IMG/VR virus record: IMGVR_UViG_3300037462_000487
Span: 11,491 to 75,490 of that record
From: a virus
Taxonomy: Duplodnaviria; Caudoviricetes
Strand: one strand, 5' to 3'
Length of the DNA stretch: 64,000 bases
Translations under genes and position numbers: made by a program
Shown: positions 1,293 through 63,138 of the stretch, in pieces
How positions within the stretch are numbered: the stretch's first letter is position 1
How the letters are laid out: each line of letters begins with the position of its first letter
The notes under the pieces: generated by a model
Databases searched by the model: none
Told to the model about the DNA's origin: nothing
The model's input: only the letters and a program-made list of their open reading frames with translations

Positions 1293-1320
1293 AATCTACA
1301 AAAATCTACAAAAATCTACA
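1293..1320 (+). repeat. Tandem 10-mer AAAATCTACA, about 3 copies
   Basis: aatctaca aaaatctaca aaaatctaca. Confidence 0.9.
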
Positions 1321-1367: not shown

Positions 1368-1411
1368 GTTACAAAACTTCTATAATATATATATAATAGA
1401 AGTTTTGTAAC
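1368..1411. repeat. Palindrome copy 1: GTTACAAAACTTCTA-N14(AT)-TAGAAGTTTTGTAAC
   Basis: Perfect 15-bp arms; exact 44-bp reverse complement of 44612-44655. Confidence 0.97.
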
Positions 1412-1465: not shown

Positions 1466-1494
1466 TTGACAATTCCCGGTTTGTATGTTATAAT
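1466..1494 (+). promoter_or_regulatory. sigma70/sigmaA consensus promoter of the packaging operon
   Basis: TTGACA-17-TATAAT with extended -10 TGn, 30 nt upstream of ORF 1524. Confidence 0.9.
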
Positions 1495-1523: not shown

Positions 1524-1931
1524 ATGGGAAAACCACGGCTTTCTCGCATTGATTATCTTGCTCTGGGTAAGCAGCGCCATCTGACGCTGGTGTCTCTTGT
1601 GACTCCGACAGATCGGGAAGAAAAAGTGGAGTGGCGCTGTAATCTGTGCCAAAAAATTTCGCGTCGCAGTTTTCGCGGCGTTAAAGAGAGTCAGTACTCC
1701 TGTACCTGTCAGGAGCCGCGACTGCACAATCCGCAGCAGTATCGGGATGCCGGGCTGGCTGTCGGGTTAGAACTGGTCGCTGCGCAGCTACCTGCCAGTG
1801 TTGCTCATAAGACGCGCTGGCGCACGGCTGCCGGCACTGAAATTGAACTCAGCTACAACCAGGTCAAAAATCTTACCCCGGCAAAGTTGTTAGTGCTGTT
1901 AAATCGGAGTCGTCATGGCAAAACTGGCTAA
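1524..1931 (+). CDS. Putative DNA-binding protein with two zinc-ribbon/treble-clef-like repeats (second lacks Cys)
   Basis: KVEWRCNLCQKISRRSF and KTRWRTAAGTEIELSY repeat units, each preceded by a Y-x3-G-x4-L-x-L-V block. Confidence 0.55.
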   Translation: MGKPRLSRIDYLALGKQRHLTLVSLVTPTDREEKVEWRCNLCQKISRRSFRGVKESQYSCTCQEPRLHNPQQYRDAGLAVGLELVAAQLPASVAHKTRWRTAAGTEIELSYNQVKNLTPAKLLVLLNRSRHGKTG

Positions 1932-2565
1932 CTCACTCGTCAACATGCTGGAACTCAGTACCGCCGACAAAATCATTGACCTGGCTTCGCAGGGGTTAAC
2001 ACTCCATCAGATTGCTACGCTGTTGAAGCTGGATCGGCGGCGCGTCAGCGAAGCCATTCAAACCTGGATGGCAGAAGTTCATACCGAATTACTCGACAAA
2101 GTAGAGACGCTGCATACCGTCGAACTGCAACGACTGGATTACATGTACAGCAAAGTAGCCCCTTATGCGTTTCCGCGTATTGATCCAGAGTTCCCGGAAG
2201 TTGAAATTCCGCCGGATCGCGGTATGCTGCAACTGCTCCTGAACATCATCAAAGAAAAACGTGAGTGGATCAAGCAGTTGCAGGAAGCGGAACGCAAAGC
2301 CAGAGAGCGCGGCACCATTTCCTTCGACAGCTTTGAAATTACCATGCACGGACATAATCCGCTGTATGAACGCGCCCGTGTAGAAATTGCCAGCGAAGCA
2401 GAAGCTAAGTCTTCGGCAGAACCGTCGGCTGCGGCGGATATGCCGGTAACTGATCTCTACACATCGTCAAAAGCGCAGTCTTTGCTGGCGGAAACTGAGA
2501 AAGAAATTAAACGAATTGGCTCCTATTACCCGGACAAACGGACGGGGGCAGACGATGACGACTAA
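1915..2565 (+). CDS. terS: Terminase small subunit (N-terminal HTH)
   Basis: HTH IIDLASQGLTLHQIATLLKLDRRRVSEAI, ELQRLD helix, directly upstream of and overlapping terL. Confidence 0.75.
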   Translation: MAKLANSLVNMLELSTADKIIDLASQGLTLHQIATLLKLDRRRVSEAIQTWMAEVHTELLDKVETLHTVELQRLDYMYSKVAPYAFPRIDPEFPEVEIPPDRGMLQLLLNIIKEKREWIKQLQEAERKARERGTISFDSFEITMHGHNPLYERARVEIASEAEAKSSAEPSAAADMPVTDLYTSSKAQSLLAETEKEIKRIGSYYPDKRTGADDDD

Positions 2566-35578: not shown

Positions 35579-35615
35579 CTAAACAAAACCCCGGCACTGC
35601 CGGGGTTTTGTTTAG
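35579..35615. terminator. Bidirectional terminator between the convergent genome halves
   Basis: CTAAACAAAACCCCGGC-ACT-GCCGGGGTTTTGTTTAG, a perfect 17-bp inverted repeat. Confidence 0.92.
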
Positions 35616-35989
35616 TGCCACCATAAATAGATGATTTGATCCCATACCAGATTAAGTAGCAGAATACGATTATACGGCTGTGCTTCCTTTATTTCAGTGA
35701 CGTTAACGGTAAGCCCCAGAAATTTAAATAGCGACTGTGATTCTACAAACAAATCAGGAGTATGTGAAGCCGCCGGCAGCAAAAGAAATTCTGTGCCGGG
35801 TGCGTTTACCCGCTCTAACACCTCCAGGATTGTTGGATCATACGGCACTTCGGCAATCCAGTATCCGGTAGCTTCCATTTTGGCTATCCAGTTACGAACA
35901 GACAAATCGTTCCGATTACCTTCGCAGTAATCAACAATGTTTTGATTAAGAACGGCTACTAAAAGTTCTTTACCCGTCATTGCTGCCAT
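35612..35989 (-). CDS. Hypothetical protein
   Basis: 125 aa, GAGG RBS. Confidence 0.75.
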   Translation of the reverse strand: MAAMTGKELLVAVLNQNIVDYCEGNRNDLSVRNWIAKMEATGYWIAEVPYDPTILEVLERVNAPGTEFLLLPAASHTPDLFVESQSLFKFLGLTVNVTEIKEAQPYNRILLLNLVWDQIIYLWWH

Positions 35990-41089: not shown

Positions 41090-41416
41090 CTAAAAATCGT
41101 CGTCAACCGGCTGACTGACGGAAAAATACGTGTAAGCCTGCGCCGAGTACTGATCGCACAAACGATACACCAGATTGTGAGTCATGGTGCCGTACTTTGC
41201 CGGTACGAGCAAAAAGAAAAAACGCAGATTAAACGCCCACCCACCCGTCTGCGCATCTTCATGCAGATACCCTGCCTGAAAGACTACCGCGTCGGAGTAC
41301 GGTTCAGTTTTTAAAGCTTTGCTCAATCCGGCTAAAAACGCTTCATACACTTCGTCAGCATTGTGAGTCGGCGGCAAACCCGCCAGTACGATTAAAAAAT
41401 CACAAACATTATCCAT
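41090..41416 (-). CDS. Hypothetical protein
   Basis: Overlaps the polA stop codon. Confidence 0.7.
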   Translation of the reverse strand: MDNVCDFLIVLAGLPPTHNADEVYEAFLAGLSKALKTEPYSDAVVFQAGYLHEDAQTGGWAFNLRFFFLLVPAKYGTMTHNLVYRLCDQYSAQAYTYFSVSQPVDDDF

Positions 41417-44240
41417 GTCGATTCTCCTTTTCCTGTCGCTGCTGCTGCATTTCGGCTGCCAGTGTCCAGCCGGTATGTACCGGCCCGATCCAGGTCGGCG
41501 CTTCGCGGCGTTCCGGTGGTTCTGCCAGTTGGCTCTCCGGCAGCAAGTGTACTCCCCACTGATTCACAAAATGATCGAGAGAGAAAGGGTATTCCCGCCC
41601 AGGGCGATAACCCCATTTACGCGCATTTTCCGGGCCGACTTCGCTCACAAAATGAATCATGGGAACAGTGCGGCGGCAAAAGCGTTCCGGCATCTGCCGA
41701 CACATGATCCGAATAATCTCCGGCAGCACGTCGGCATATTCTTCCAGTTTAACCGCTACAATCAGGCTGTCGTGAACGTTAAACGCTACGTAAGTCGCTT
41801 TGCCGGCTGCAAGCAGCCATTCTGTAATCTCAACCGTCGCGCGGGCGATCATCTCCGCGACACCTCCCTGCTGGATGTAATTCCAGGCTTTGTAGCCGAC
41901 TGCCTGCCGCTTGCCTTCTTCCCAAAAAGACGGTACCACCACGCGAGCGCCTGTCCAGAGTGTCGTGTAAGTAGGGTACTGCCCCTCCTGCAACCGCCGC
42001 TGCGCAACATCGGCAGCTTCGCGTTTACGCTGCGTCACTCGCGGGTACGCCGCATCTTTGTTCGCCAGAATACGCCGCGCTTCGTCAATGCTCTGCCGGA
42101 TCATGATCGAAATCTTGCCTGCGCCTGCGCCATACGCCGAACCAAACGTCACGCCTTTGCCCATCGTGCGCAACTGCTTCAACCGCTTTTTATCGCCTTC
42201 GCGCTGTGCTTTATGCCACTCATCGGCAAAGTAAATTTCCGCCTGAGCGGCGTGAAAATCGCCACCTTCCGTCGCCATCGCAAATCGGTCATCCGCCGCT
42301 ACCATTGCGCCGGTTTTATTTTCGGCGTTGCTGTAGTCTAACTCAACATACCAGTAACCTTCCGGGGCGTGTAACCAGCCGGCAGCTACCGACAGATTAA
42401 GATTCTGTAAGTTGGGAGTCGTTGACGTATAGCGTCCGGTGCGAGTCAGCCGGGAAATCACCGAATGAATGCGTCCGTCACGTTCAGCATGAGCCAGCAG
42501 TTCGTCAATGCGGATCACCAGCGCTTCGTTCTCCTGCGCTTCACGCAGATGCCGCGCTGGATGCTGTGCATAATCCGGGTTCGCAATGACTTCGCCGTCA
42601 ACTTCGATTTTAGGGCGTGGCAGATAAAAATCCAGCGCCTTTTTTCCCAGAGACAGCGTGCCAGTCTCTACCGCCAGCGTCTGATAGTTAACTTCGTTGT
42701 CTGCCAGCAAAATAATGCTGTCGTCATCTTCGTAATCATCGCCGTACAGCACTTCCGGGGCCGCGACAATGCGGTTCTGCATCTGTCGCTGAAAAGTCTG
42801 CGTCACCAGAAATGGGTTATACTGAATGTCTTCGGCAGTCGGCAGCAGCACATTGCACAGACAGAAGATGTAGTAATACTTAAACACCTTCTTTCCCATC
42901 AGTTCCAGCGGCGGCGGCAGGGCATCCTGGTCATAGCGGTAACGCAGCCAGTTCCAGGTCAATGTAGCGCGATACGTCTGATTAAGTCTATCGTGAGTTG
43001 CGTACAGATGCTCTGCCAGCCGCCGCGTAATTTGCGTCACATCCAGTACCGGCGGTATCGAGCGTGGAGCAGCTTTCACCAGCGACACGCGCGTATACCG
43101 CTGTGTCGGATCAAACGCCAGCAAAAACGCTTCCCATTCAGCGCGGGAACTGTCAGGCACCGCCGACCAATCCAGCCAGTGCAGCAGTGCCTGCTTCTCC
43201 GCCGTCGTCAACACCCCTACTGCCTGTTGCAGTAAGCGCCGAGTCGCGGAGTAAGTTGCCTGCTGTGTTACGGTAGTCAGAATTTTTTCCAGCAGCACCA
43301 GATACGCCAGTGAGGTATCTACCGTGTCTTCGACTTGATTCATCGCCGCAACTGCACTGGCTTCGCGGCTGGCATAAAGCTGACGCTGCTGCCGCAGGTA
43401 ATCCTGATCGACAGGCGAACCCGTCGCTGCCTGCAAGCAGGAAGTCCAGCTAATCCGCTGCTCCCAGGCAATCAACTCCGGGAGAGCCTCCCACTTGCCG
43501 ATCACCCGGTTTTTCCCGGTTAGCGCTATCGTTTCCCGACTAATCTGCTGTACAAAATCACGTTCAAATTCATAGAGATAGTACGTCAGTACAGTATCCA
43601 TCAATACGTAACGATCAATCACGCAGGCGGCTGCCGTCGTTACGTCGGTACGTCCGCCGTCTGCCGTCAGATCAGCATACTCCCAGAACAGGCTGTCGGT
43701 TTGCAGCAAGTCAATCTGCACCTGCTCAAAGTCGGCGCGGTAAGCTTTCATCTTAGCGTAAAACTCTCGATCCTGCGGCAGGAAAACATCACGCCAGCAG
43801 TATTTCTGCACCAGCGCAGTCAGACTGGCTTCGCCTTTTTCCGGTTCCGCCAGCATCGTCCGCAGCGCAATGACCTGCGTATCCCAGACTTTAACTCCTG
43901 CCGGCAGCGTGATCTGCCAGTGCCCGCCGACGCTGCGAAAATCAAAAACAATGTTGTGTCCGATCAGGGTATAGTGCGGGCGCTGCAAGACTTGCCGCAG
44001 AAAATCGACAACTTCCGGCGAAAAATCGGAGAACACCACCCCCGGAAAACCCGGTGTGTATAGTGCCACTTTCATGATGGGGGCAACAAACGATAACCCG
44101 TACTTTTTATTTTGCCAGACAGAAGTAGGTGGCGTGGTTTCGGTTTCAATATCCAGCGACAGAGTATCGCAAGTCAGTAAAAAATCCGCTTCCTGCCAGT
44201 CTCGAATAATTTTCACACTACCCTCCATTTCTTGCCACAA
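41409..44240 (-). CDS. polA: Family A DNA polymerase with 3'-5' exonuclease
   Basis: ExoI LDIETE, ExoII GHNIVFD, ExoIII YVLMD, TGRYTS..PNLQN, motif A LDYSNAE, motif B RTMGKGVTFGSAYG, motif C VHDS; true start may be the GTG of VKII. Confidence 0.96.
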   Translation of the reverse strand: MWQEMEGSVKIIRDWQEADFLLTCDTLSLDIETETTPPTSVWQNKKYGLSFVAPIMKVALYTPGFPGVVFSDFSPEVVDFLRQVLQRPHYTLIGHNIVFDFRSVGGHWQITLPAGVKVWDTQVIALRTMLAEPEKGEASLTALVQKYCWRDVFLPQDREFYAKMKAYRADFEQVQIDLLQTDSLFWEYADLTADGGRTDVTTAAACVIDRYVLMDTVLTYYLYEFERDFVQQISRETIALTGKNRVIGKWEALPELIAWEQRISWTSCLQAATGSPVDQDYLRQQRQLYASREASAVAAMNQVEDTVDTSLAYLVLLEKILTTVTQQATYSATRRLLQQAVGVLTTAEKQALLHWLDWSAVPDSSRAEWEAFLLAFDPTQRYTRVSLVKAAPRSIPPVLDVTQITRRLAEHLYATHDRLNQTYRATLTWNWLRYRYDQDALPPPLELMGKKVFKYYYIFCLCNVLLPTAEDIQYNPFLVTQTFQRQMQNRIVAAPEVLYGDDYEDDDSIILLADNEVNYQTLAVETGTLSLGKKALDFYLPRPKIEVDGEVIANPDYAQHPARHLREAQENEALVIRIDELLAHAERDGRIHSVISRLTRTGRYTSTTPNLQNLNLSVAAGWLHAPEGYWYVELDYSNAENKTGAMVAADDRFAMATEGGDFHAAQAEIYFADEWHKAQREGDKKRLKQLRTMGKGVTFGSAYGAGAGKISIMIRQSIDEARRILANKDAAYPRVTQRKREAADVAQRRLQEGQYPTYTTLWTGARVVVPSFWEEGKRQAVGYKAWNYIQQGGVAEMIARATVEITEWLLAAGKATYVAFNVHDSLIVAVKLEEYADVLPEIIRIMCRQMPERFCRRTVPMIHFVSEVGPENARKWGYRPGREYPFSLDHFVNQWGVHLLPESQLAEPPERREAPTWIGPVHTGWTLAAEMQQQRQEKENRHG

Positions 44241-44569: not shown

Positions 44570-44589
44570 CGTTTAACTCTCCCTGAATA

Positions 44590-44687
44590 TACAAACCTGA
44601 TTCAAACGTCCGTTACAAAACTTCTATTATATATATATTATAGAAGTTTTGTAACGGACAGTCAGTTTAGTCACTTTTCTGACTAAA
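44590..44687. repeat. 98-bp element, copy A: 52-bp palindrome plus TTTAGTCA-N6-TGACTAAA
   Basis: Arms GTCCGTTACAAAACTTCTA (44608-44626) and TAGAAGTTTTGTAACGGAC (44641-44659); reverse complement of 62401-62498 at 93/98. Confidence 0.97.
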
Positions 44688-44930
44688 TTGATAAAGCGTT
44701 GAGTTAGTGTTAATTTCCCAGGTAATTTCTTGCCGCATTGCCTGTAGCTGCCCTAAAACTGCCTTAAGTGTTGATTCATACTGAAAGCTGCGCTGCGCCT
44801 GCACCTGCAACCGATAGCTGGCTTCCTCCAATTGACTCGCCTGTTCTGCCAGCAGCGTGATGACTGAACTCAGTTCCGGGTGAGTCGGCAGCAGCCGCGT
44901 CAATTGAGTTATGGCTTCGTCGGTTGTCAT
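44667..44930 (-). CDS. Coiled-coil hypothetical protein
   Basis: AGGAG RBS; last codons FSQKSD* are supplied by the repeat. Confidence 0.7.
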   Translation of the reverse strand: MTTDEAITQLTRLLPTHPELSSVITLLAEQASQLEEASYRLQVQAQRSFQYESTLKAVLGQLQAMRQEITWEINTNSTLYQFSQKSD

Positions 44931-45591: not shown

Positions 45592-45813
45592 TTAATAATT
45601 CAATTTCATTGTTTCGGGGATCGTCGCCATGCGATAATCGCCGTCAGCCGAGATATTGACCCAGGCCAGCCGGTAATGCTGCTTGACGTAAAATTCAATC
45701 TGCATAAAGCGCATACCCTGCATCAGCCGCACGATCCCGGTAGGGCTGCCGTGTAGAATGCCGGCATCCGCCAGACATTCATCGAGAGTTACAAAAACTT
45801 TTTTGTGAGTCAT
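45592..45813 (-). CDS. Hypothetical protein
   Basis: AGGAG RBS, coupled to the helicase stop. Confidence 0.7.
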   Translation of the reverse strand: MTHKKVFVTLDECLADAGILHGSPTGIVRLMQGMRFMQIEFYVKQHYRLAWVNISADGDYRMATIPETMKLNY

Positions 45814-47867
45814 GAGTGTTCTCCTAAAATACCTGCCTGAGTCAATTTGGTTTTGAGCAGCGCCAGTTGTTTTTTAACCGGCGGTGTCACTAACAGATGA
45901 TTTATAATACTGCTGGCTTCTCCCATTTTCAAGAGGGAATCGCGGTTTTCATACCCCAGACTGCGCAGCATTTTTAACTGAGCTTCGGTAACTGCCTGTC
46001 GTTTCCAACTGGCTTTCTTGCGGGTGAAGCTGCTCACTAGCTGTTCCTGATCGGCCAGTCGCGCCATGTAGTCGGTAGCATCCAGCAGCAGATCGTCAAT
46101 ACTGCTGTTACGCAGCAGATCAACCGGCTTTTCCAGCTTCCAGTTTTTGTCTTGATTGATAACACTCCACAGTGTGTATTGTTGATGCAGCGCCGCCAGA
46201 TACAGCAAAGCTTCTTCCCACTCCCGTAGTTTGGCAGTAGGCTGTTGTTGCAGATAAGGATACGCTGCCAGCGCCGCTGCATTGTCGGTATTCAACACGT
46301 CACTGATCGCTTCGGCAGCAGTCTGACAGGCCTGCCCGACAACATAGTTTGGCGCGACAATCACCAGTGACTGCTGACTGGAAACCGCAACGCTGTAGAT
46401 GTCGTCATTTTCATCCCGATACCAGTCAGTTGCCTGCTTATTAATAATCTCGGCAACGGTGTAGTGCAGTTTCTCACCGTCATTTTTAGGCGACTTTTTA
46501 GTTCGCTTTTTAGACTCGGTGCTGTCTAGCAGCAAGTCTTCTTCGTTTTCTTCTTCTTCGGGTACATACTGATTGTCAGTGTTAACCTGATAGCCAAACA
46601 AAGAGCCAATAGGCGAGATACTGAAAGCCCGCCCGGTAAACTCCACAATCAGTGCGTCTGTTTTGCCCGGATGCAGCCGTAAGACGCGACCGACTGCCTG
46701 CGTTTTGAGTACATCGTTGTCGGTGCTGCGCAGCCAGAACAAACAGTCAGCAACAGGTAAGTCTAACCCTTCCAGGCCGACACCGTATGACCACAGAGCT
46801 TGAATTTCGCCTTTCATGTAGCGGCGGTAGATGTCGCCGCGAGCGCTGACGGGTTTGACGCTGCCGTCAACATCGACACACTTCTCGCCATCGGTGTGAG
46901 CCGCCGGTATTCCGGCAGCGTTAAAAGCTTCGGTGATGAGAATGCTGGCTTCAACTCCGCCAGTTTCACCCGCTTTGCCGGTAAACCCCATGATGTGACG
47001 CTGACTGGCTTTTTCTTTGGCGGCTTTAACAATCAGCGGCAGCCAGTTACGGGTGTCTTCCAGTTTCAGCGTGTCGCCGGTACCGTCGTCAATGATAACT
47101 CGTACCGGCGTTGCAAATGGTACCAGATACCCTTCCTGCTGCGCCCACCGGTAAGAGCGGGTGATATAAATTGTCTCAAACAGATTGTTTAAGCCGCGAC
47201 CGTCATACCGCATAGGTGTCGCGGTGTAACCTACCAGCGCCGGAAATTCCAGATCAAACAGTCGGGCAACGTGACGCAAACGCTGCATCAGCACCAGCGA
47301 AGCATCACTAACGCTGTGATGACACTCGTCAAACTGAATTAATGACGGCAAACCTCCCTGAGCCAGAATCTGATCGACTCGCTCGCTGACGAAAATTTTA
47401 CGTGATGTCTGACTTGCCAGTCGAATGCTGCCATCGCGTTCCAGTCGCAGTTCGCTTTTTTCTGGCAAGGCAAACGGTGCTGCTGTCTTGTCGGCAATCG
47501 TGCGATCTACCAGCGTCTGAGCAGAAGCGACAATGATGCGGGCAGCCGGTGTGTTGTGACGTTCCATGACGACACCGATGCCGGGGACAAGCTGCTGATA
47601 GTTTTTCACCGCGACATTGCCACGCAGTTCCGGCCACTCGTATTTATAATTTTCGTACATCTGCCAGATCAGACTGCGAGCCGGCGCAATCATCCAGCTA
47701 CGCGCTTTATCCGGCGGCGCAAGCTGCCGGTTAATTTCAATTGCGGTAATTGACTTGCCGCCGCCGGTAAAAAAATGCACTACCCCGGCGCGTTTTCCCT
47801 GCGCGATACCTCCTTTCACTCGCTCTACCGCTTCCTGCTGATACGGGCGTAAAGCCTTAGCTGCCAT
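45810..47867 (-). CDS. SF2 DEAD/ResIII-like helicase
   Basis: LRPYQ, TGGGKS, DECHH, TATP, EGLDLP, QAVGRVLR, C-terminal W..AVTEAQLKML. Confidence 0.93.
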   Translation of the reverse strand: MAAKALRPYQQEAVERVKGGIAQGKRAGVVHFFTGGGKSITAIEINRQLAPPDKARSWMIAPARSLIWQMYENYKYEWPELRGNVAVKNYQQLVPGIGVVMERHNTPAARIIVASAQTLVDRTIADKTAAPFALPEKSELRLERDGSIRLASQTSRKIFVSERVDQILAQGGLPSLIQFDECHHSVSDASLVLMQRLRHVARLFDLEFPALVGYTATPMRYDGRGLNNLFETIYITRSYRWAQQEGYLVPFATPVRVIIDDGTGDTLKLEDTRNWLPLIVKAAKEKASQRHIMGFTGKAGETGGVEASILITEAFNAAGIPAAHTDGEKCVDVDGSVKPVSARGDIYRRYMKGEIQALWSYGVGLEGLDLPVADCLFWLRSTDNDVLKTQAVGRVLRLHPGKTDALIVEFTGRAFSISPIGSLFGYQVNTDNQYVPEEEENEEDLLLDSTESKKRTKKSPKNDGEKLHYTVAEIINKQATDWYRDENDDIYSVAVSSQQSLVIVAPNYVVGQACQTAAEAISDVLNTDNAAALAAYPYLQQQPTAKLREWEEALLYLAALHQQYTLWSVINQDKNWKLEKPVDLLRNSSIDDLLLDATDYMARLADQEQLVSSFTRKKASWKRQAVTEAQLKMLRSLGYENRDSLLKMGEASSIINHLLVTPPVKKQLALLKTKLTQAGILGEHS

Positions 47868-47893: not shown

Positions 47894-48010
47894 AAACGGG
47901 GCATTACAAAATTTTTCTGGCAGTTCGGTTTCACTTCGTACCTGAACTGCCAGAAAAAGAGTTAAAAAAGAGCGGTGGGGGAGTCGCAAAAATTTTGCAA
48001 TGCCCCGTTT
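47894..48010 (-). ncRNA. Candidate structured cis-RNA in the helicase leader (nested stems)
   Basis: Outer IR 47894-47916/47988-48010 with one G.U on the - strand; inner perfect 15-bp IR 47912-47926/47944-47958. Confidence 0.55.
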
Positions 48011-48393: not shown

Positions 48394-48905
48394 CGACGGC
48401 TCTCTTTTTTCAGTTCTTGGTACAGCTTTTTGCGTAGTTGATCGCCGCTGTCCAGTTGATCGTTTAAAAGCTGCTCGCGTTCCCGAAACTGCCGTTCTTC
48501 GTAAGCAAAATAAATCCGGGAATTGTTCTGCCAGGACTCGATAGCGTCAATCAGTGCGGTGGCGCTAAGTCGTGATTCCAGCAGGTTAACCAATTCGTCT
48601 TTCAGCGTTTGCTCATAACTGGCAGCAAGTTCGTAAAAAGGCAATTTGTGTTTATGATTTTCCGACGGGTACGTCAGAAACGAGTCACTTTGAATCCGCC
48701 AGACTCGGCCTTCGTTTTCGTCTAGTCGCAGCGTAAAATAAACCGTAGCCAGCGCCGATTGATGTGACTCTGACAGCGGCAGCACTGCATCGCCGGAGAA
48801 CTGACTGCCGTTAAAGTAGATTTTCATAACACCTCTCTGGTAAGGATTGTGTAGGTACCGGGTAAATGCCGTTCCAGCGTAGTCCAGGTCATAAAAATCG
48901 TACAA
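48390..48905 (-). CDS. Hypothetical protein
   Basis: 171-aa ORF in the operon. Confidence 0.65.
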   Translation of the reverse strand: MYDFYDLDYAGTAFTRYLHNPYQRGVMKIYFNGSQFSGDAVLPLSESHQSALATVYFTLRLDENEGRVWRIQSDSFLTYPSENHKHKLPFYELAASYEQTLKDELVNLLESRLSATALIDAIESWQNNSRIYFAYEERQFREREQLLNDQLDSGDQLRKKLYQELKKESRR

Positions 48906-49144
48906 AAGTAAGGTGACTCTTTAACCAGATTGTTGCTGGCAACTTCACTGATCTGCCAGACTAAACGCGGATGGTAAGGCACCTGAAACACTGTTTCCGC
49001 TACGGTGCCGCTGACTTCGCGCCAGGCTTCGACTTCCTGCATTCCGGCGGTAACAATATCTTTGACTTCAGTCGGCCGGCGCTTGGGGGGACGCACTTTT
49101 TTACGCTGACTGAACCTCTCTCGTAAGTTATTCCATGATTCCAC
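48824..49144 (-). CDS. Hypothetical protein
   Basis: Overlaps the primase stop; 3' end overlaps the next gene by 82 nt. Confidence 0.5.
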   Translation of the reverse strand: MESWNNLRERFSQRKKVRPPKRRPTEVKDIVTAGMQEVEAWREVSGTVAETVFQVPYHPRLVWQISEVASNNLVKESPYFCTIFMTWTTLERHLPGTYTILTREVL

Positions 49145-52100
49145 CTGCTAACTCCTTTGCTACTTTTTCACGTAAACGTTTGACAACTGAATTAGAACCG
49201 CCAAACCGGGCGACAACTTCCCGGTAAGCGGGGAAATCCCCGTATTGAATATACCACTCACGCAAATATTTTTCAATATCTGACTCCTTGTTGTGGATAA
49301 ACGCCTTCATAAACTCTTTCTTGTGAATTACTCGTGTCACATACGGCAGCGCCGGGCGACTCGCCAGCACGTAAACGTATTTTTTGCTGCCGGTAGCATG
49401 AGGACGTATTCTTTCGGCTGACTGGATCATCTCGCCAGTCTCGATCATGTTGACAAACAAATCACCAAACCAGTGATTAAACGTGCGATAGCCGTGACCG
49501 GAAGACTGCGTATCGTAAACCGCCGGTTTAATCACGGTTTCCGCACTGATGTCGTCTTTGATTTTGAGCAGGTAAGCCCAGGCACTAATACGCCGGTACA
49601 CCACATCATACGGCACCCGAAACGCACCGATCAGACACACTGCCGGATATTCGGCGTAAGTATTGGTACCGCGTAACGCGCCGTAATGCCCCCAGGCGAC
49701 GCGGGGAAAAGCCGGATCATCTTTAAACAGTTCTTCAAACAGTTCTCGAATGTTTTTGTGAGTGACTACCAGCAGTTTTTCGTGTTTTTCCAGCAAACCA
49801 CGAATAATTGCCAGCGCATCCCGGACGACGCGCCGATGATAGACATTTTCATTCAGCGGTTCCTGAGCCTTTAGCAGCGCTAAATCCTTACCTAATTCGG
49901 TATAAATCTGCGATTTTGTCCAGTCGGAACCGTGGACTACCATCACTTCCGCTGCCGGATTGCGAACTTTTGGCTGATAGACTTTAACTTCGCGTTGAAA
50001 CATCCCCTGATACAGAATCGGCAGCGACGTAGCATCTGCAACAATCATCGGCACCTGCCGCGGAAACAACACCGGGTTCTGTTCGTAAATCTCCAACACA
50101 CCGTCGATCAGATGAATTGCGGATGGGCGGTTAAACTCCGGGTCAGCCAGATAATCCGGCAGTTCGTGTAACAAGGCTTGCAGCAGCGGCGGCACGACTC
50201 GCTTGCGAATAGTGGCAATGTCGCCTCCCATAAAGTACGGCTGATACACCCGTTCCAGTAAATCGTAGTCGATAGCTGCCAGTATTTTTGCCAGCGACCA
50301 GTCGGGGTTAAACCCGGTAATCAGCGTGTCTACCAGTTTAAAAAACCGGTTGCCACTCAGCGTTTCCGCACTGGCAGTACCTAAAGCACCCCTCACCGCG
50401 GCAGTCAGCAGATCAATCAGCAGCACTAGCTGCCGATCTTCAACATCTAAATCCCACCCATCGGTAAACGGATACACATCACTGGCTTTGACTCGCAGCG
50501 GATTATTGTCAATAATCCCGCCAGGATTTTCGTCAATGACGATCAGTTGACGGTAATCGTCACCGCGGTCGCCGGTAAGATGCTGAAAACGAAAAAACGT
50601 CAACGGATACTGATGACGCTGCCTGTCTTGACTCAGATAGCCACTCTGCTCACACTCCCGCCGGAACGGGCAGACAAGCTGACAGTACCGACCGGTGTCG
50701 TGATAGTTGTTACTAATCGCACTGATCGTACTAAAATTGGCACAGTTGCCTTCGTGTCGGGCTTCAAAGTTAAACCACAGCGCTGGATTTGCACCAGTCG
50801 CCAGCAAAGAATCATAACCATCTTTATACTGACCATACCAGGCGATGCTGGCATAGGAAAAATCATCTAGCCGCCGTTGCAGTTTGCTGACCAGTTCCAG
50901 CAGCGCTTTACGTTCTTCCCATTGAGCCGCCGGCAGTGCCGCAATCTCTGCCTGAATACCGGCAATGTTTTCCTGTAGCTTCGCTCGCTCTGCCAGCCGC
51001 AGGTCGTACTGCTGCTGTGCAATTTCTTCTGCCAGTTGAATTAAAGTATGCGTTTTGCCGGCTCCGGGTGGGGCTGCCAGCAGCAGTAACTGCGGCTGTG
51101 TGCGATCAGTTGAGTAAGTTTTTAAAAAATCTCGTACCTGCTGCGCTAAAGAATGCTCACCACTGCCCCGAATTTCATCCAGACTGAAAAAGTCAGACGC
51201 TGCTGGCGCAGGCGGTTCAGGAACACAGTCGATGAACAAGCCACGAGTCACTCCCGCCGGATCATACGTTACTACCTGCAACCGCTGCTGAATAAAAATG
51301 CGAGCAAAGTCTTCTGTGCTGTTTTGCAACAGATCGGTGACATCATACCCGGAAGGGTATTCACTATCGCGCCAGTGCAGATAACCGGCAGTCGGGATAC
51401 CGCAGTGTTTAGCCCACTGCGTGACATTCTCCGAGAATTTTTCCCCGGCTGCGTCGCAGTCTCCCATCACCCAGACAGTCTGATACCCTTCTCGCTGAAG
51501 CAGCGCGGTTTTTTCTTTTGACCAGGCAGTCGAACCAAACGACACAAAGATATTCCAGTTGGGGAATAGCTGCGCCAGGGTAATGCCATCTTTTTCGCCT
51601 TCCGCAACTACCGCAACGGTAGCTGCCGGATCGTTGATAATGCGCCAAAAATACTGCCGCGAACTGCCGGGAGTACGCTTGGGCGGCAATCCGGTTTGCC
51701 TCCCGGAAACGTAATACAATCCCCTAATACTGGCATTTTCGTCAGCGTCGCTGACGTGTTCTACCTGCATAGGAATGGTATTCACCGGGCCGTCTTGACT
51801 GTACAGCGTTCCCTTTCCCAGACGAAAGCGTTGAATAGTTGCGTCTGTCCAGCCGAACTTACGCCAGTAAGCGTAATCGACTTCTTTCTGACTGCGCTGC
51901 ACCAGGTCTTCCGTCCAGAGCATATGCAGCGGATTGTCATCCAGTTGTGTTTGAAATTCCAGATCAAAGCTGTCGGTTAACGTTACGTTGAGCTTGTCTG
52001 CCAGATCATCATACGTATAAAAACCATTGTTATTGCGTCCACGGCTGTGACGAGCGCAGGAACGGCAGTACAACCCGGCTCCAAACCATACCAGACGATC

Positions 52101-52250
52101 CCGCCCGTAAAAACGCACCTGATTAAAAACTATTTCGTCGCTGGTACCATCCGGCAGGCAAAATGGACACGGGCTGTGATACTCTTTGCGTTCAGTCTTC
52201 ACCGTTGCCGGCGGAAATTGTAGAATAAAATCTTGCAGTGAAGACACCAT
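49128..52250 (-). CDS. Zn-finger/TOPRIM primase fused to an SF2-like helicase domain and C-terminal HTH
   Basis: CPFC..CRSC, EGEKDG and GDCDAAG TOPRIM motifs, Walker A APPGAGKT, CANF..CQLVCPFRREC, IVIDENP, LRGTNTY, QSAERIR, C-terminal PAYREVVARFGGSNSVVKR. Confidence 0.85.
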   Translation of the reverse strand: MVSSLQDFILQFPPATVKTERKEYHSPCPFCLPDGTSDEIVFNQVRFYGRDRLVWFGAGLYCRSCARHSRGRNNNGFYTYDDLADKLNVTLTDSFDLEFQTQLDDNPLHMLWTEDLVQRSQKEVDYAYWRKFGWTDATIQRFRLGKGTLYSQDGPVNTIPMQVEHVSDADENASIRGLYYVSGRQTGLPPKRTPGSSRQYFWRIINDPAATVAVVAEGEKDGITLAQLFPNWNIFVSFGSTAWSKEKTALLQREGYQTVWVMGDCDAAGEKFSENVTQWAKHCGIPTAGYLHWRDSEYPSGYDVTDLLQNSTEDFARIFIQQRLQVVTYDPAGVTRGLFIDCVPEPPAPAASDFFSLDEIRGSGEHSLAQQVRDFLKTYSTDRTQPQLLLLAAPPGAGKTHTLIQLAEEIAQQQYDLRLAERAKLQENIAGIQAEIAALPAAQWEERKALLELVSKLQRRLDDFSYASIAWYGQYKDGYDSLLATGANPALWFNFEARHEGNCANFSTISAISNNYHDTGRYCQLVCPFRRECEQSGYLSQDRQRHQYPLTFFRFQHLTGDRGDDYRQLIVIDENPGGIIDNNPLRVKASDVYPFTDGWDLDVEDRQLVLLIDLLTAAVRGALGTASAETLSGNRFFKLVDTLITGFNPDWSLAKILAAIDYDLLERVYQPYFMGGDIATIRKRVVPPLLQALLHELPDYLADPEFNRPSAIHLIDGVLEIYEQNPVLFPRQVPMIVADATSLPILYQGMFQREVKVYQPKVRNPAAEVMVVHGSDWTKSQIYTELGKDLALLKAQEPLNENVYHRRVVRDALAIIRGLLEKHEKLLVVTHKNIRELFEELFKDDPAFPRVAWGHYGALRGTNTYAEYPAVCLIGAFRVPYDVVYRRISAWAYLLKIKDDISAETVIKPAVYDTQSSGHGYRTFNHWFGDLFVNMIETGEMIQSAERIRPHATGSKKYVYVLASRPALPYVTRVIHKKEFMKAFIHNKESDIEKYLREWYIQYGDFPAYREVVARFGGSNSVVKRLREKVAKELAGGIME

Positions 52251-52270
52251 GAATCTTCCTGTAGCAATAA

Positions 52271-52304
52271 ACAAAAGATCAGCCTGCCACCGAGCAGGCT
52301 GATC
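52271..52304 (-). terminator. Intrinsic terminator after ORF 52312-53622
   Basis: GATCAGCCTGC-N6-GCAGGCTGATC followed by TTTTGT on the - strand. Confidence 0.85.
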
Positions 52305-52311
52305 CGGTTAA

Positions 52312-53622
52312 CTAAAGTTGGAGATCGTCAGTAGTAGCAATGTCTTGCACAGGAATAAACTGAGGATTTTGAGTCAGGTATTCATCGACAGCGGTGAGAT
52401 CAGCAATTCGCAGCAGTGTTTCCCGTCCATTGGCAGTTTGATAATCACGCAGCGCTTCATAAAACGGCAGCAGGTGTTCCGACGGCACTACCTGACCAAG
52501 ATTAAAATCCGGCACCAGCGTCGGCTTCTGAAAATTATTCTTAACGACAGTCATCACCGCGGCTCGCACCGGCCCCTGCATCCCGACAATTTCCGGTTTG
52601 CCAGACGGATACACTGGCGAAGTCGGCACCGACAGCACCATATACGGATAATTGTCGGGGTTGTTTCGCAGTTGCGTAAACAATTCGTTCAACGATCCGT
52701 CGTCGTTCCGCAGCGGAGCCGCGACATACCCGGCAGGTGCGCCATCAGTAACGCCGGTAGCAAACCCAATGACATAGGCATAATGCTGCGGCTTAACTTC
52801 ACCGACGCGCATCGCTACCACCGCATTTTTATTGCGCGGATGCTGCGCAAACAGACTGATAATCCCCGGCAGCGTGCCGCCACCCTGACGACCGGCTAAA
52901 CTACGGGAGTCAAACACCCCTTCCAGTGCCTGCTGCACACCCGAATTTGAACCACGCAGCAGTGCCAGAAATCCCGTAGTAATGCGTTTGTTTTCCGGGA
53001 TGTGGCTGTCGGCAGCGGTATGCGGCAGAACATAAACGACATACGTCGTTGACGCATTACACACCGGCGGTTTACGTTTGCCGTCAACTTCTTTCCACTG
53101 ACCGAGAGGGCAGGTTTCGCACACCGCCCGGTGTTCATCACCCCACCCCTGCGCTTTCGTCGTCACAGCCGTGTTTTCGGCAGTGTAACCAATCGTCACA
53201 GCAGCGCCGTCGCGGTGATCGGTAAAAACAGTGCCGATGTATTTCGGCAGCGGCGCAATGCCATTCGCTGATTTACACACCGGGCCACCTGCATTAGCGG
53301 CTTCGTCGCGTTTGCCGTCAGCATCGTGTGCCCACATCTGCCGCCCACCACGCACCATCTGTCGCTTGCCGCGGGTGTAAAAATCTCCCACCACATCGAC
53401 CAGCAGAAAGTTGATGCTGTCGCCGTAAAACCCCTGCGACGTGTCGCCTGCCGGGCCGGCGTAAAGCTGTCCAGCTTTGTTTTCGTGGCGTTGCAGCGAA
53501 CTGCGCTGCGGAAATTCTACCACATAGTCAATGGTGTAATACTCCTGCTGAGTCGGTTGAAAGTCAGGCACATTCAGCAGTTCGTCGAGTACCGAAGATG
53601 TAACCGGAATAATGTCGTTCAT
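52312..53622 (-). CDS. Putative ssDNA-binding/annealing protein with Cys4 motif
   Basis: PVCKSANGIAP..CETCPLGQW..PPVC pattern, acidic C-terminus DDLQL, strong RBS plus terminator (high expression), next to the primase. Confidence 0.5.
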   Translation of the reverse strand: MNDIIPVTSSVLDELLNVPDFQPTQQEYYTIDYVVEFPQRSSLQRHENKAGQLYAGPAGDTSQGFYGDSINFLLVDVVGDFYTRGKRQMVRGGRQMWAHDADGKRDEAANAGGPVCKSANGIAPLPKYIGTVFTDHRDGAAVTIGYTAENTAVTTKAQGWGDEHRAVCETCPLGQWKEVDGKRKPPVCNASTTYVVYVLPHTAADSHIPENKRITTGFLALLRGSNSGVQQALEGVFDSRSLAGRQGGGTLPGIISLFAQHPRNKNAVVAMRVGEVKPQHYAYVIGFATGVTDGAPAGYVAAPLRNDDGSLNELFTQLRNNPDNYPYMVLSVPTSPVYPSGKPEIVGMQGPVRAAVMTVVKNNFQKPTLVPDFNLGQVVPSEHLLPFYEALRDYQTANGRETLLRIADLTAVDEYLTQNPQFIPVQDIATTDDLQL

Positions 53623-53645
53623 ACAGGTATCCTTTAACTTGATCG

Positions 53646-54248
53646 TTAACTCATTTTACCACGATTGGGAACTGTCGTCAAGATATACTCATAACAGCAG
53701 CGACACAGGTTCTGAATAAAAACCTGTCGAACTAAATCTGTCCAGGACATACCTGCCTGAATTGTCGCCATCCCCCAGATAAACTCCGGGAAAAAACCGA
53801 TTAGTCGCGGCAGTACGTCTTCTCGCTGGTACCAGCTAAAATGATTTAAATTTTGTTTTACATAATCCCACACCTTTTCTTCAGTTTCGACTGAATACCA
53901 TTTAATGCGGCGCTCATCTTCATCTTCATTGCTATTGGTGGCAATGAAAGGCAGGTTGTCTGTTTCTTCCGCAAAATCATCTTCCAGTTTTTCTGCTACC
54001 ATTTCGGCAAAACTACGCACGTCACGCAAAAACGTTTCCGGTGTCAGAGCCGACTGCTGCCGCACATAGTATTCCGGCAAGTCTTTCCAATCCTGCACTA
54101 CCCGCGGCGGCAAGCTGGATAACACATCCTGAAACAGCGTGCCATCACTTTCCAGCGCAGTAAACACATACAGATTGCCGATGCGTTTAACTGTGCCGAC
54201 TTTATCTCGATGCTTAAACAAACCTATAAATTGCATATATTCGCGCAT
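53646..54248 (-). CDS. Acidic hypothetical protein
   Basis: ORF track; acidic central block. Confidence 0.7.
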   Translation of the reverse strand: MREYMQFIGLFKHRDKVGTVKRIGNLYVFTALESDGTLFQDVLSSLPPRVVQDWKDLPEYYVRQQSALTPETFLRDVRSFAEMVAEKLEDDFAEETDNLPFIATNSNEDEDERRIKWYSVETEEKVWDYVKQNLNHFSWYQREDVLPRLIGFFPEFIWGMATIQAGMSWTDLVRQVFIQNLCRCCYEYILTTVPNRGKMS

Positions 54249-54258
54249 AACTCATGTC

Positions 54259-61875: not shown

Positions 61876-62265
61876 TTAACCTCTCCGACGCACCAGCGTC
61901 TTAAATCCCTGCTTGCTGCTGACTACGGCAAACTTGCGTCTGGCCAGTAAAGGCAGCCAGTAGCTATCCGCTGGCACCGTAATCTGACACAGATCAAAAC
62001 GATTATAAATCAGTTCAATCGCTTTGTCAAGCAGCGCATAGCGAGCAGTTTCGTCAACCAGCGACGGTTCGTACAGTTCCAGCACCAGCCGGCAGCGTGT
62101 CTGCTCCTGATAGTTATCCAGCAGAATAATCTGAAAATAAGCCAGTGTTTCGTGCAGATTCTGCGGCCGACTGTGATACGTCAAACCAATGCGATAAGAT
62201 TGCCCGAAAGCAACTTCCAGTGGCGTAGCCGAAACTGCGCCGTTTTTAAAAGCAGTGAAAAACAC
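61876..62265 (-). CDS. Hypothetical protein
   Basis: Start refined to GTG 62265 (GGAGG). Confidence 0.6.
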   Translation of the reverse strand: MFFTAFKNGAVSATPLEVAFGQSYRIGLTYHSRPQNLHETLAYFQIILLDNYQEQTRCRLVLELYEPSLVDETARYALLDKAIELIYNRFDLCQITVPADSYWLPLLARRKFAVVSSKQGFKTLVRRRG

Positions 62266-62400: not shown

Positions 62401-62498
62401 TTTAGTCAGAAAAGTGACTAAACTGACTGTCCGTTACAAAACTTCTATTATATATACTATATAGAAGTTTTGTAACGGACGTTTGAATCAGGTTTGTA
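62401..62498. repeat. 98-bp element, copy B (inverted relative to copy A)
   Basis: TTTAGTCA-GAAAAG-TGACTAAA at 62401-62422; 19-bp arms 62429-62447 and 62462-62480. Confidence 0.97.
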
Positions 62499-63138
62499 AA
62501 GACAGCGCTTCCAGCCAGATCGGCTGGCTGTCGGCAGTCAGTTTGACTTCACAAAACGCCTGGCTGCTGCGCCATTCCAGTTTGCCGGTGGTTTTCCCTC
62601 GCAGACTAAAAGTGTGTGGCATCGCTGCTTCTTCCGGGTCAGTCAGCAGTTGCGCTGCCGCTATATCTGCCGGCCAGAAAAAAGTCTGCGAACCAACTGT
62701 CACCAGATAAATGCGGTTGACGCGGTTAATCAGCGTAGCGGTAGTGTGTACCGATCTTTCTTCCGTCAGCCGCAGCAGCTTTCTGACAGTTTCTTTCGAC
62801 AACGCACCACCTGGTGGTGGCAGGTATAGCTGGCAATCATCTTCATCGACAGTTACCGGATCAGGCAGCCCCGGCAGTTTGACGGCGACTTTACCGTCTG
62901 GCAGCAACTGTACACTGCGCCCGTGAATAACTGCCGGCTGGTGGGGTGTTAGCTCCGTCGGCCAGAAGATTGCCTGAAGACTGCTGTGCGGCACTACCAG
63001 ATCACTGTATGCCAGACGAATGGTACACTGCTCAAACGTCGGTGTATCAAAGTCAATTGCCTGCGCCGTCAATCGGACATAGCTTTGCAGCGCCAGATAG
63101 ACACTGTGCAGCGGCGTGCTCTTTCTCGAATTTAACAT
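62488..63138 (-). CDS. Hypothetical protein, SH3-like module; paralog of 63132-63821
   Basis: VAVKLPGLPDPVTVDEDDCQLY; last codons LQT* come from the repeat. Confidence 0.7.
   Translation of the reverse strand: MLNSRKSTPLHSVYLALQSYVRLTAQAIDFDTPTFEQCTIRLAYSDLVVPHSSLQAIFWPTELTPHQPAVIHGRSVQLLPDGKVAVKLPGLPDPVTVDEDDCQLYLPPPGGALSKETVRKLLRLTEERSVHTTATLINRVNRIYLVTVGSQTFFWPADIAAAQLLTDPEEAAMPHTFSLRGKTTGKLEWRSSQAFCEVKLTADSQPIWLEALSLQT

What the first reader, a model, noticed from the sequence alone, without database searches (positions are those of the whole stretch)
44590..44687. Three-copy AT-centred palindrome with herpesvirus-Ori-like architecture: candidate multi-origin replication system
Seen: GTTACAAAACTTCTA-N14-TAGAAGTTTTGTAAC occurs at 1368-1411, 44612-44655 and 62433-62476. 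The arms are identical and the spacer is always 14 nt of near-alternating TA. All copies lie outside coding sequence, and two have arms extended to 19 bp. Pairing is purely Watson-Crick with no G.U, and copy 1 lies upstream of the late promoter where it is probably not transcribed, which points to a DNA-level function. Known: inverted initiator boxes flanking an alternating-AT unwinding centre is the layout of HSV-1 OriS/OriL, bound by the SF2 helicase UL9. Inference: these could be three origins recognised by the phage's own primase-SF2-HTH fusion (49128-52250). Alternatives are operators of a master regulator or loxP-like recombination sites.
Basis: partly seen in the sequence, partly recalled or inferred. 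Interest (0 to 1): 0.88.

Follow-up and report, generated by a model that had tools for sequence, protein, structure and literature searches.

The report
Lineage-specific AT-centred palindromes in a phage
Three copies of a 44-base DNA palindrome with an easily melted TA-rich middle sit at the heads of the main gene blocks of an uncultured 75-kb phage; its relatives carry the same kind of element with their own sequence, which points to docking sites for a phage protein, most likely replication start sites, with gene-switch sites nearly as likely.

Summary
The 15-14-15 palindrome occurs exactly three times in the 75.5-kb circularly assembled phage record, where none is expected by chance, and all copies lie between genes. 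(1) The element has polarity: copy 1 is the exact reverse complement of copy 2, and in the direction of the downstream genes all three read GTTACA-N18-TATAAT. (2) Copies 2 and 3 lie in a 105-nt inverted repeat, yet the core of copy 3 keeps the gene-direction polarity. (3) All four other members of this uncultured siphophage family where the relevant region could be read (three complete genomes, one 27-kb contig) carry the same class of element (1-3 copies, 41-89 bp, AT-rich centre). Their arms are completely different and genome-specific, and they sit at comparable places: the divergent control region upstream of the packaging genes, and the replication module. (4) Seven of ten copies lie 28-403 nt upstream of a strong sigma-70-type promoter (1.3 expected). 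This argues for a DNA-level site read by a co-evolving phage protein. Origin function (about 0.4) fits most facts. A regulated promoter/operator (about 0.3) is the main rival. Function and the binding protein remain untested, and the herpesvirus likeness is only an analogy.

The parts
1368..1411 (+). Palindrome copy 1 (15-14-15). Its polar core reads GTTACA-N18-TATAAT on the + strand, towards the packaging/structural operon. It lies in the divergent control region.
44612..44655 (-). Palindrome copy 2, the exact reverse complement of copy 1; arms extend to 19 bp (44608-44659). On the minus strand it reads GTTACA-N18-TATAAT. It lies 42 nt upstream of a 100-aa ORF and about 370 nt upstream of polA.
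62433..62476 (-). Palindrome copy 3; arms extend to 19 bp (62429-62480). Three spacer positions differ, but the downstream nine spacer bases and the TATAAT in gene direction are kept. It stands at the head of the 17.7-kb replication block.
44583..44687 (.). Arm of the 105-nt inverted repeat that carries copy 2. It includes a second small inverted repeat at 44662-44691.
62401..62505 (.). Partner arm of the 105-nt inverted repeat, carrying copy 3. The flanks are inverted relative to copy 2, but the core polarity is not.
1293..1320 (+). Three 10-nt direct repeats 48 nt left of copy 1. They share the heptamer TACAAAA with the palindrome arms (iteron-like auxiliary sites).
1466..1494 (+). Perfect sigma-70 consensus promoter, 55 nt downstream of copy 1.
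62002..62030 (-). Perfect sigma-70 consensus promoter, 403 nt downstream (in gene direction) of copy 3.
49128..52274 (-). 1048-aa Zn-finger/TOPRIM primase fused to a P-loop ATPase. Its C-terminal ~75 aa are the most divergent part, with HTH-like helices encoded at about 49140-49226. It is the candidate reader of the arms.
52312..53622 (-). 436-aa conserved replication-module protein with four invariant Cys. It is probably a gp32-like OB-fold ssDNA-binding protein.
1915..2565 (+). 216-aa HTH protein just upstream of TerL (small-terminase-like). It is an alternative candidate reader of the arms.
41409..44240 (-). DNA polymerase A, downstream of copy 2.
45810..47867 (-). SF2 helicase (ResIII/Helicase_C), upstream of copy 2.

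Best explanation
The palindromes are cis-acting DNA sites of the phage chromosome. Two inverted 13-20-bp recognition arms for a phage-encoded, genome-specific DNA-binding protein flank a TA-rich centre that melts, or extrudes as a cruciform, very easily. The sites sit just upstream of the strongest host-type promoters, where transcription drives negative supercoiling. The most likely job is replication initiation at two or three redundant origins per genome. The initiator, possibly the primase-ATPase through its variable C-terminal HTH-like tail, would bind both arms, the TA centre would open, and the SSB, helicase and polymerase encoded nearby would take over. The polar sigma-70-like promoter inside the element may supply a primer or activating transcript, so that forks would leave co-directionally with the genes. 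Shown: the sequence architecture, the polarity, the placement, and conservation of the element class across the family with changed arms. Inferred: protein binding, the identity of the protein, melting, and origin activity.
For: (1) There are three exact copies against none expected, and only three in the whole genome. (2) The class is conserved while the sequence is not. G002 has 2 copies, G003 has 2 plus an orphan half-site, G001 has 3, and contig L125 has 1. Each genome has its own arms, and the spacer is near-constant within a genome (14/14/14; 25/25/25; 12/11; 15/16). This is the pattern expected of a site that co-evolves with its reader. (3) Half-sites can stand alone. The G001 copy at 14960-15016 keeps only one arm. 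G003 has an extra arm at 33816-33838 and the 8-mer TATGGTAC over a promoter -10. In G000 the direct repeats beside copy 1 share TACAAAA with the arms. Hairpin function alone would not preserve lone arms. (4) A C:G to T:A change between the two G002 copies is mirrored in both arms. (5) Placement: divergent control region upstream of the packaging genes (G000 copy 1, L125, the G001 copies at 70323 and 74624); 1.1-1.4 kb upstream of the SSB-primase operon (G003 copy at 8803, G001 copy at 14960); between helicase and polA (G002 copy at 28792, G000 copy 2). (6) Seven of ten copies lie 28-403 nt upstream of a promoter with at least 10 of 12 consensus matches, against 1.27 expected. The G001 copy at 70323-70411 lies between back-to-back 12/12 and 11/12 promoters, so it is untranscribed by them and in the zone of highest negative supercoiling. 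(7) The loci are at or next to the most AT-rich 60-nt windows of G001, G002 and G003. (8) Two or three sites against many (24-45) strong promoter-like matches per genome fits origins better than a global operator. (9) No separate initiator family was found in the proteins scanned. The primase-ATPase tail is the most variable part of an otherwise conserved protein and models as helix-turn-helix. (10) Precedents: the SaPI ori has oppositely oriented repeats on both sides of an AT-rich centre, read by the C-terminal domain of a primase-helicase fusion (PMC9371898). HSV has three redundant origins, two of them inside inverted repeats, with inverted boxes around an AT spacer (PMC12543377).
Against: No functional datum exists. 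Cumulative GC skew follows gene orientation and shows no inflection at copies 2 and 3. No DnaA boxes lie near any copy. Unlike SaPI or lambda-type origins, the sites are not inside or directly next to the candidate initiator gene. The polarity that tracks gene direction, and the conserved downstream TATAAT in copy 3, are explained more simply by a promoter. The HTH assignment of the primase tail rests on a 4-sequence alignment and non-significant fold matches. Only four relatives could be examined.
Confidence: 0.4

Rival explanations
1. Regulated promoter/operator modules. Each palindrome is a host sigma-70 promoter, with the -35 in the upstream arm and the -10 at the downstream edge of the TA centre. 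The promoter is bracketed by two operator half-sites for a phage regulator, or switched by supercoil-driven cruciform extrusion. It would control one temporal class of transcription units: packaging, replication and polA blocks.
For: In gene direction all three G000 copies read GTTACA-N18-TATAAT (10 of 12); the opposite strand scores 9 of 12 or fails. Copy 3 sits in inverted flanks yet keeps the downstream nine spacer bases and TATAAT in gene direction. The G001 copy at 14960-15016 replaces its upstream arm with a better -35 (TTGACT, 16-nt spacing to CATAAT) while keeping the downstream arm. The G002 copy at 53442-53484 has TATAAT only on the gene strand. G003 has an arm 8-mer over the -10 of a neighbouring promoter. 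Copy 2 and the G003 copy at 8803-8847 lie 42 and 19 nt before the next start codon. Scattered palindromic operators are known from Streptomyces phage phiC31 and, as asymmetric sites, from cluster A mycobacteriophages (own knowledge).
Against: Any TA-rich centre yields -10-like hexamers. The -35 likeness is weak (2-4 of 6) and absent in G003. Seven of ten copies already have a stronger promoter just downstream, at distances from 28 to 403 nt that are too variable for a fixed activator or repressor geometry. There are only 2-3 sites against dozens of strong promoters. No regulator was identified, and no sigma factor or phage RNA polymerase was found.
Confidence: 0.3
2. Sites of DNA processing, either for packaging or genome ends, or for recombination. 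Copy 1 would mark the boundary of a terminal repeat or a terminase site read by the small-terminase-like HTH protein. Alternatively, the cruciforms would be cut or recombined, for example to flip the 17.7-kb block between copies 2 and 3.
For: The copy conserved in all five genomes lies 1-4 kb upstream of TerL. An HTH protein sits just upstream of TerL in every genome. In the only public run, the 1754-nt unitig ending in copy 1 has k-mer depth 25, against 12.6-15.5 for the rest. Copies 2 and 3 lie in a 105-nt inverted repeat.
Against: Three cut sites would fragment the genome. No contig shows the inverted arrangement (tables 5 and 7). No tyrosine or serine recombinase or protelomerase was found in four genomes, with positive controls ringing. 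The doubled depth could equally come from a region shared with another strain. Flipping the block would turn about 25 genes against transcription.
Confidence: 0.1
3. RNA-level hairpins. In the polycistronic transcripts the 20-30-bp stems would serve as RNase III processing sites, 3'-end stabilisers, or unconventional terminators between modules.
For: Stable hairpins are predicted (-15 to -21 kcal/mol as DNA, z -7 to -11). Copies often start 0-12 nt after the upstream stop codon. The single arm mismatch of the G003 copy at 8803-8847 is G:U only in the sense strand.
Against: G000 copy 1, the L125 copy and the G001 copy at 70323-70411 lie between divergent units, where no strong promoter reads through. 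Lone arms are conserved without a pairing partner. No U tract follows any stem, while the same phage uses canonical terminators elsewhere. Within-genome sequence identity is not needed for structure alone. There is no Rfam match.
Confidence: 0.08
4. A selfish or neutral small palindromic repeat (MITE-like) that has been copied around the genome and has no role for the phage.
For: The 105-nt unit is present in two orientations with 92% identity. Tiny mobile palindromes were reported elsewhere in this scan (unchecked leads).
Against: The same architecture recurs at comparable module boundaries in five genomes with unrelated arm sequences. No target-site duplications are visible. Polarity is kept relative to the genes. 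Exact-pattern scans of the viral and metagenome collections found the arm pair nowhere else, apart from one unrelated chance match.
Confidence: 0.05

Closest known systems
SaPI replication origin with Rep / PriRep self-loading initiator-helicase (Staphylococcus pathogenicity islands; PMC9371898)
   Same: Element-specific short repeats point in opposite directions on both sides of a central AT-rich region. Specificity differs between related elements.
   Different: The SaPI ori lies immediately downstream of rep, is single, and is built of 6-12 penta- or hexanucleotide iterons. Here there are 2-3 dispersed copies of long perfect 13-32-bp arms, 1-9 kb from the primase-ATPase gene. The ATPase is not recognisably of the SaPI Rep type, and binding is untested.
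HSV-1 OriS/OriL bound by the SF2 helicase UL9 (PMC12543377)
   Same: Inverted boxes flank an AT-rich spacer. There are three redundant copies per genome, two of them inside inverted repeats. They are located in promoter regions next to replication genes. The arms can form a hairpin.
   Different: The virus realm is unrelated. Neither helicase-like protein matched the UL9 family in the Pfam scan. The HSV boxes are about 10 bp. The likeness is one of layout only.
Promoter-type origins of T7 (phi1.1A/B plus AT-rich region) and T4 (oriF, oriG: middle promoter plus unwinding element) (own knowledge)
   Same: A lytic phage with its own primase, helicase, SSB, polymerase and RNase H but no classical initiator. 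It has several origins, each combining a promoter with an easily unwound AT tract.
   Different: Those origins have no long palindromic arms and use phage-specific promoters. Here the AT tract is inside the promoter-like element rather than downstream of it.
Dispersed repressor sites: conserved inverted repeats of Streptomyces phage phiC31 and stoperators of cluster A mycobacteriophages (own knowledge; lead)
   Same: Lineage-specific sites in intergenic DNA at module boundaries, tied to the direction of transcription.
   Different: Those sites are 13-17 bp, occur in 18-30 copies, and belong to temperate phages with a known repressor. Here the sites are 41-89 bp with a TA core, occur in 2-3 copies, and no integrase or repressor was found.
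Cruciform-controlled promoter (engineered E. coli promoter of Horwitz and Loeb 1988) and the hairpin promoters of coliphage N4 (own knowledge)
   Same: A promoter embedded in an inverted repeat whose extrusion depends on supercoiling.
   Different: The first is artificial. The N4 hairpins have 5-7-bp stems and need a virion RNA polymerase, for which there is no sign here (though the control did not ring).

Membership tests
HSV-type origin (OriS/OriL with UL9) | Inverted initiator boxes flanking an AT-rich spacer | tested here: met
   The sequence layout is met in G000 and in four relatives. Binding is not shown.
HSV-type origin (OriS/OriL with UL9) | An encoded origin-binding helicase of the UL9 family | tested here: not met
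   The Pfam scan of the 1048-aa and 685-aa proteins lists Toprim, P-loop, ResIII and Helicase_C only; the herpes origin-binding family is not listed at E up to 0.01.
HSV-type origin (OriS/OriL with UL9) | Supports origin-dependent DNA synthesis | not testable with these tools
   Only contigs of one DNA run were available.
SaPI-type ori with self-loading (Pri)Rep | Oppositely oriented specific repeats on both sides of a central AT-rich region | tested here: met
   G001 arms contain two TTAATAG motifs each.
SaPI-type ori with self-loading (Pri)Rep | Ori immediately downstream of the initiator gene | tested here: not met
   The sites lie 1-9 kb from the primase-ATPase gene, mostly upstream of it.
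SaPI-type ori with self-loading (Pri)Rep | C-terminal winged-helix domain on the helicase that reads the repeats | tested here: inconclusive
   The tail models as three helices (pLDDT 79-88). The best fold matches are HTH domains, but with E of 0.56 or worse. It is the most divergent region of the protein.
Sigma-70 promoter with flanking operator | -35 and -10 hexamers, 16-18 bp apart, facing the downstream genes | tested here: inconclusive
   10 of 12 in all three G000 copies and in the G001 copy at 14960; 9 of 12 in the G002 copy at 53442; poor in G003.
Sigma-70 promoter with flanking operator | Mapped transcription start and a cognate regulator | not testable with these tools
   No RNA run was listed. 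No regulator family was detected.
Intrinsic (Rho-independent) terminator | G+C-rich stem followed by a U tract | tested here: not met
   The terminator scan does not call any copy, and the tails lack T runs. Canonical terminators exist elsewhere, for example at 35578-35616.
Site-specific recombination or telomere-resolution site (loxP, hix, telRL) | A cognate tyrosine or serine recombinase or protelomerase in the genome | tested here: not met
   PF00589, PF00239 and PF16684 give no six-frame match in G000-G003, with controls ringing.
N4-type hairpin promoter | A virion-carried single-subunit RNA polymerase | tested here: inconclusive
   PF00940 has no match, but it rang in no control either. 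The giant ORFs are a tape measure protein and a PKD-like tail protein.

The most novel reading that the evidence does not exclude
An uncultured family of 74-83-kb lytic siphophages replicates from two or three redundant, genome-specific palindromic origins. A primase-ATPase with a fast-evolving C-terminal HTH loads itself on both arms and opens a (TA)n core, helped by negative supercoiling from the adjacent consensus promoters. An internal promoter makes each origin fire co-directionally with its gene block. That would be a bacterial-virus counterpart of the herpesvirus UL9/OriS-OriL system and of SaPI PriRep, with a readable arm-to-protein specificity code.
Probability: 0.25. Interest if true: 0.75.

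Novelty: new variant of a known kind. Interest (0 to 1): 0.58.

Why it matters
For most uncultured phages, origins and master control sites are unknown. Here a simple sequence signature marks two or three candidate sites per genome: a long perfect palindrome with a TA core, a few copies, genome-specific arms, and a position upstream of the strongest promoters. The signature recurs across a family that shares no protein above about 30% identity with any cultured phage. If the sites are origins, the family offers a natural specificity series: four different arm sequences set against four variants of a small C-terminal domain. That series could show how a primase-helicase finds its start site, and it would provide portable ori-initiator pairs. 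If the sites are promoter switches, they define a compact palindromic control module, possibly sensitive to supercoiling. Either way the element is a practical landmark for annotating related metagenomic phages.

Tried and rejected
Searches for close relatives:
- Exact-pattern scans for the arm or the arm pair in IMG/VR and in JGI metagenomes returned only chance single-arm matches and one unrelated, plant-like 1-kb contig.
- blastn and tblastn against GenBank phages found nothing closer than about 25-28% amino-acid identity.
- A genome-contig scan with the TerL alignment found nothing.
- The search for related loci with polA alone found nothing.
- Two Logan contigs carrying polA at 50% identity (L118, L119) held no comparable palindrome in the part covered; their large gap is a tRNA array.
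- The look-up of encoding contigs closed, so the longer Logan, ENA and JGI relatives of TerL (listed) could not be fetched.

Tests that gave no signal:
- Rfam: no family.
- Sequencing runs: one DNA holder only and no RNA holder listed. Laying its contigs gave no joints, no ends and only per-contig depth.
- DnaA-box scan: none near any copy.
- Genes flanking the palindromes are not homologous between genomes.

Ideas dropped:
- A link between pentapeptide-repeat proteins (possible gyrase modulators) and cruciform control was dropped as a family trait, because only G000 has them.

Fold results:
- Foldseek on the primase tail and on the 436-aa protein gave no significant match.
- VIA-align on the 436-aa protein gave only weak OB-fold/SSB-type matches, Z 5 or lower.

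Full report

The pattern of a 15-nt arm, a 14-nt spacer and the inverted arm occurs at 1368-1411, 44612-44655 and 62433-62476. No match occurred in 100 shuffles, and the window holds no further arm with 2 or fewer mismatches. The window is bases 11491-75490 of a 75,490-bp IMG/VR virus record. That record's ends overlap by 173 bp, so the assembly is circular, and the whole record holds only these three copies. Copies 2 and 3 extend to 19-bp arms. All copies are intergenic. As single strands they fold at -15 to -21 kcal/mol (z -7 to -11).

The spacer is not self-complementary, so the element is polar.
- Copy 1 is the exact reverse complement of copy 2 (pair I2).
- In the direction of the downstream genes all three copies read GTTACA-N18-TATAAT: the + strand for copy 1, the minus strand for copies 2 and 3.
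- Copies 2 and 3 are embedded in a 105-nt inverted repeat (44583-44687 against 62401-62505). This was also noted by another first-stage note.
- Although the flanks of copy 3 are inverted relative to copy 2, its core is not. In the sense direction the last nine spacer bases and the TATAAT are the same as in copies 1 and 2, and only the first five spacer bases differ. Polarity has therefore been kept independently of the flanks.

3. THE GENOME

The phage is a siphovirus-type phage.
- Structural and packaging genes: a 2887-aa tape measure protein and a large terminase.
- Replication and nucleotide genes: DNA polymerase A, an SF2 helicase, and a 1048-aa Zn-finger/TOPRIM primase fused to a P-loop ATPase; also RNase H, ThyX and two DNA methyltransferases.
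- No cultured phage is closer than about 25-28% amino-acid identity.
- Plus-strand packaging and structural genes run rightwards from the divergent region that holds copy 1. Minus-strand early and replication genes run leftwards around the circle, through copy 3 and then copy 2, to a bidirectional terminator at 35578-35616.
- The phage relies on host-type promoters. There are several perfect or near-perfect TTGACA-N17-TATAAT sites, one 55 nt downstream of copy 1 and one 403 nt downstream of copy 3.
- No phage RNA polymerase, sigma factor, integrase, resolvase or protelomerase is detectable.

4. RELATIVES

A TerL alignment (A1) retrieved three complete IMG/VR genomes: G001 at 81.4 kb, G002 at 73.8 kb and G003 at 82.5 kb. 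It also retrieved fragments. These genomes share the replication and structural core at 26-49% identity. None carries the G000 arm, but each carries the same class of element.
- G002 has two copies with its own 16-nt arms. One is a 58-bp perfect palindrome lying exactly between the helicase and polA genes. The other lies near the divergent region, framed by a further 24-nt inverted repeat. A C:G to T:A difference between the two copies is mirrored in both arms.
- G003 has two copies, an orphan arm 80 nt from one of them, and the arm's first eight bases again over the -10 of the next promoter.
- G001 has three copies with a 25-nt asymmetric AT-rich centre. One has 32-nt perfect arms, one has the centre inverted, and one keeps only the downstream arm while gaining a better -35.
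- The more distant contig L125 has one 52-bp copy in its divergent region, 4 kb upstream of TerL.

Spacer length is almost constant within a genome and differs between genomes.

Positions recur across the family: the control region upstream of the packaging genes, 1.1-1.4 kb upstream of the SSB-primase operon, or between helicase and polA.

5. PLACEMENT RELATIVE TO PROMOTERS AND TO MELTABILITY

Seven of ten copies have a strong sigma-70-type promoter 28-403 nt downstream in gene direction, against 1.27 expected for random intergenic positions. The G001 copy at 70323-70411 lies between two back-to-back strong promoters. Those promoters therefore do not transcribe it, and it sits where divergent transcription concentrates negative supercoiling (established twin-domain principle). 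The loci coincide with or adjoin the most AT-rich 60-nt windows of G001, G002 and G003.

6. WHAT THIS EXCLUDES OR WEAKENS

- Intrinsic terminators: there is no U tract, and canonical terminators occur elsewhere.
- Pure RNA hairpins: some copies are not transcribed by any strong promoter, lone arms are conserved, and within-genome sequence identity is not required for structure.
- Recombination or telomere sites: no recombinase was found.
- A selfish repeat: the architecture is conserved at comparable places with unrelated sequences.

What remains is a DNA-level site read by a genome-specific phage protein, with a core built to open or extrude.

7. ORIGIN OR PROMOTER/OPERATOR?

For origins:
- Few copies against dozens of promoters.
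- Proximity to replication genes.
- A melt-prone core in supercoiled zones.
- Iteron-like auxiliary repeats beside copy 1 that share TACAAAA with the arms.
- No classical initiator found in the proteins scanned.
- A primase-ATPase whose only poorly conserved part is a C-terminal tail that models as helix-turn-helix. Its fold matches to LexA, sigma region 4 and GntR-type domains are not significant.

The conserved 436-aa neighbour folds confidently, has four invariant cysteines, and weakly resembles gp32-type and other OB-fold ssDNA-binding proteins. It is probably the SSB, not an initiator.

Two precedents exist. The SaPI ori is read by a primase-helicase fusion through its C-terminal domain (PMC9371898). 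HSV-1 has three redundant origins, two of them in inverted repeats (PMC12543377).

For a promoter/operator:
- Polarity tracks gene direction.
- The -35/-10 geometry is kept in G000, in the G001 copy at 14960 and in the G002 copy at 53442.
- The downstream TATAAT is conserved in copy 3.
- Some copies have short leaders to the next gene.

The two readings can be combined as a transcription-assisted origin, as in T7 and T4. I rate origin-type function at 0.4, promoter/operator at 0.3, end or recombination processing at 0.1, RNA hairpin at 0.08, and selfish repeat at 0.05.

8. LIMITS

- GC skew only mirrors gene orientation.
- The single public run is kept as contigs, which break at the palindromes and give one depth value per contig.
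- One lead could not be followed. The 1754-nt unitig ending in copy 1 has depth 25, against 12.6-15.5 elsewhere. This could mean a terminal repeat bounded by the palindrome, or a region shared with another strain.
- Similar lineage-specific palindrome families have been noted by this scan in other phages. I treat those notes as unverified leads.

Noticed in passing
contig 11134-12887 (window about -356 to 1397): In the only public run, the Logan unitig that ends inside copy 1 has a mean k-mer depth of 25. The neighbouring unitigs of the same phage have 12.6-15.5. This could be a terminal redundancy bounded by the palindrome, or a segment shared with a second strain.
   Followed up: no
window 1293-1320: Three 10-nt direct repeats lie 48 nt from copy 1 and contain the heptamer TACAAAA, which is also in the palindrome arms. 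Further left are GGGGGCGC repeats (contig 12465-12491) and a 43-nt tandem array (contig 11014-11163).
   Followed up: partly
window 47894-48010: A 117-nt nested palindrome (23-nt outer arms, 15-nt inner stem) lies between the helicase gene and the gene upstream of it. Its outer arm contains TTACAAAA, as in the three palindromes.
   Followed up: no
window 10252-10283: A perfect 32-nt palindrome lies after the capsid-like gene. Its outer bases form the -10 of a TTGACG-N17-TATAAT promoter, so this is an overlapping terminator/promoter module.
   Followed up: no
window 52312-53622 (minus strand): A 436-aa protein conserved next to the primase in all four genomes (64 homologues in 1.8 billion representatives). 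Its model is confident (pLDDT 89), it has four invariant Cys, and it has only weak fold matches to T4/RB69 gp32, PRD1 P12, PriB and the phiC31 gp3 recombination directionality factor. It is probably a new Zn-containing OB-fold SSB.
   Followed up: partly
window 1466, 5126, 10229, 12149, 15314, 26205 (+ strand): Six perfect or near-perfect sigma-70 consensus promoters are spread through the packaging and structural operon. This is unusual for late genes and implies that timing is set by something other than promoter strength.
   Followed up: partly
contig 1-10205 (before the window): Pentapeptide-repeat paralogues in the early region gave twelve PF00805 matches. They are present only in this genome, not in G001-G003.
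   Followed up: partly
G002 53150-54800 and 48600-52800: The relative G002 has a run of G+C-rich hairpin repeats and a tRNA-like array next to its second palindrome. L118 holds a tRNA array of more than 1 kb.
   Followed up: no
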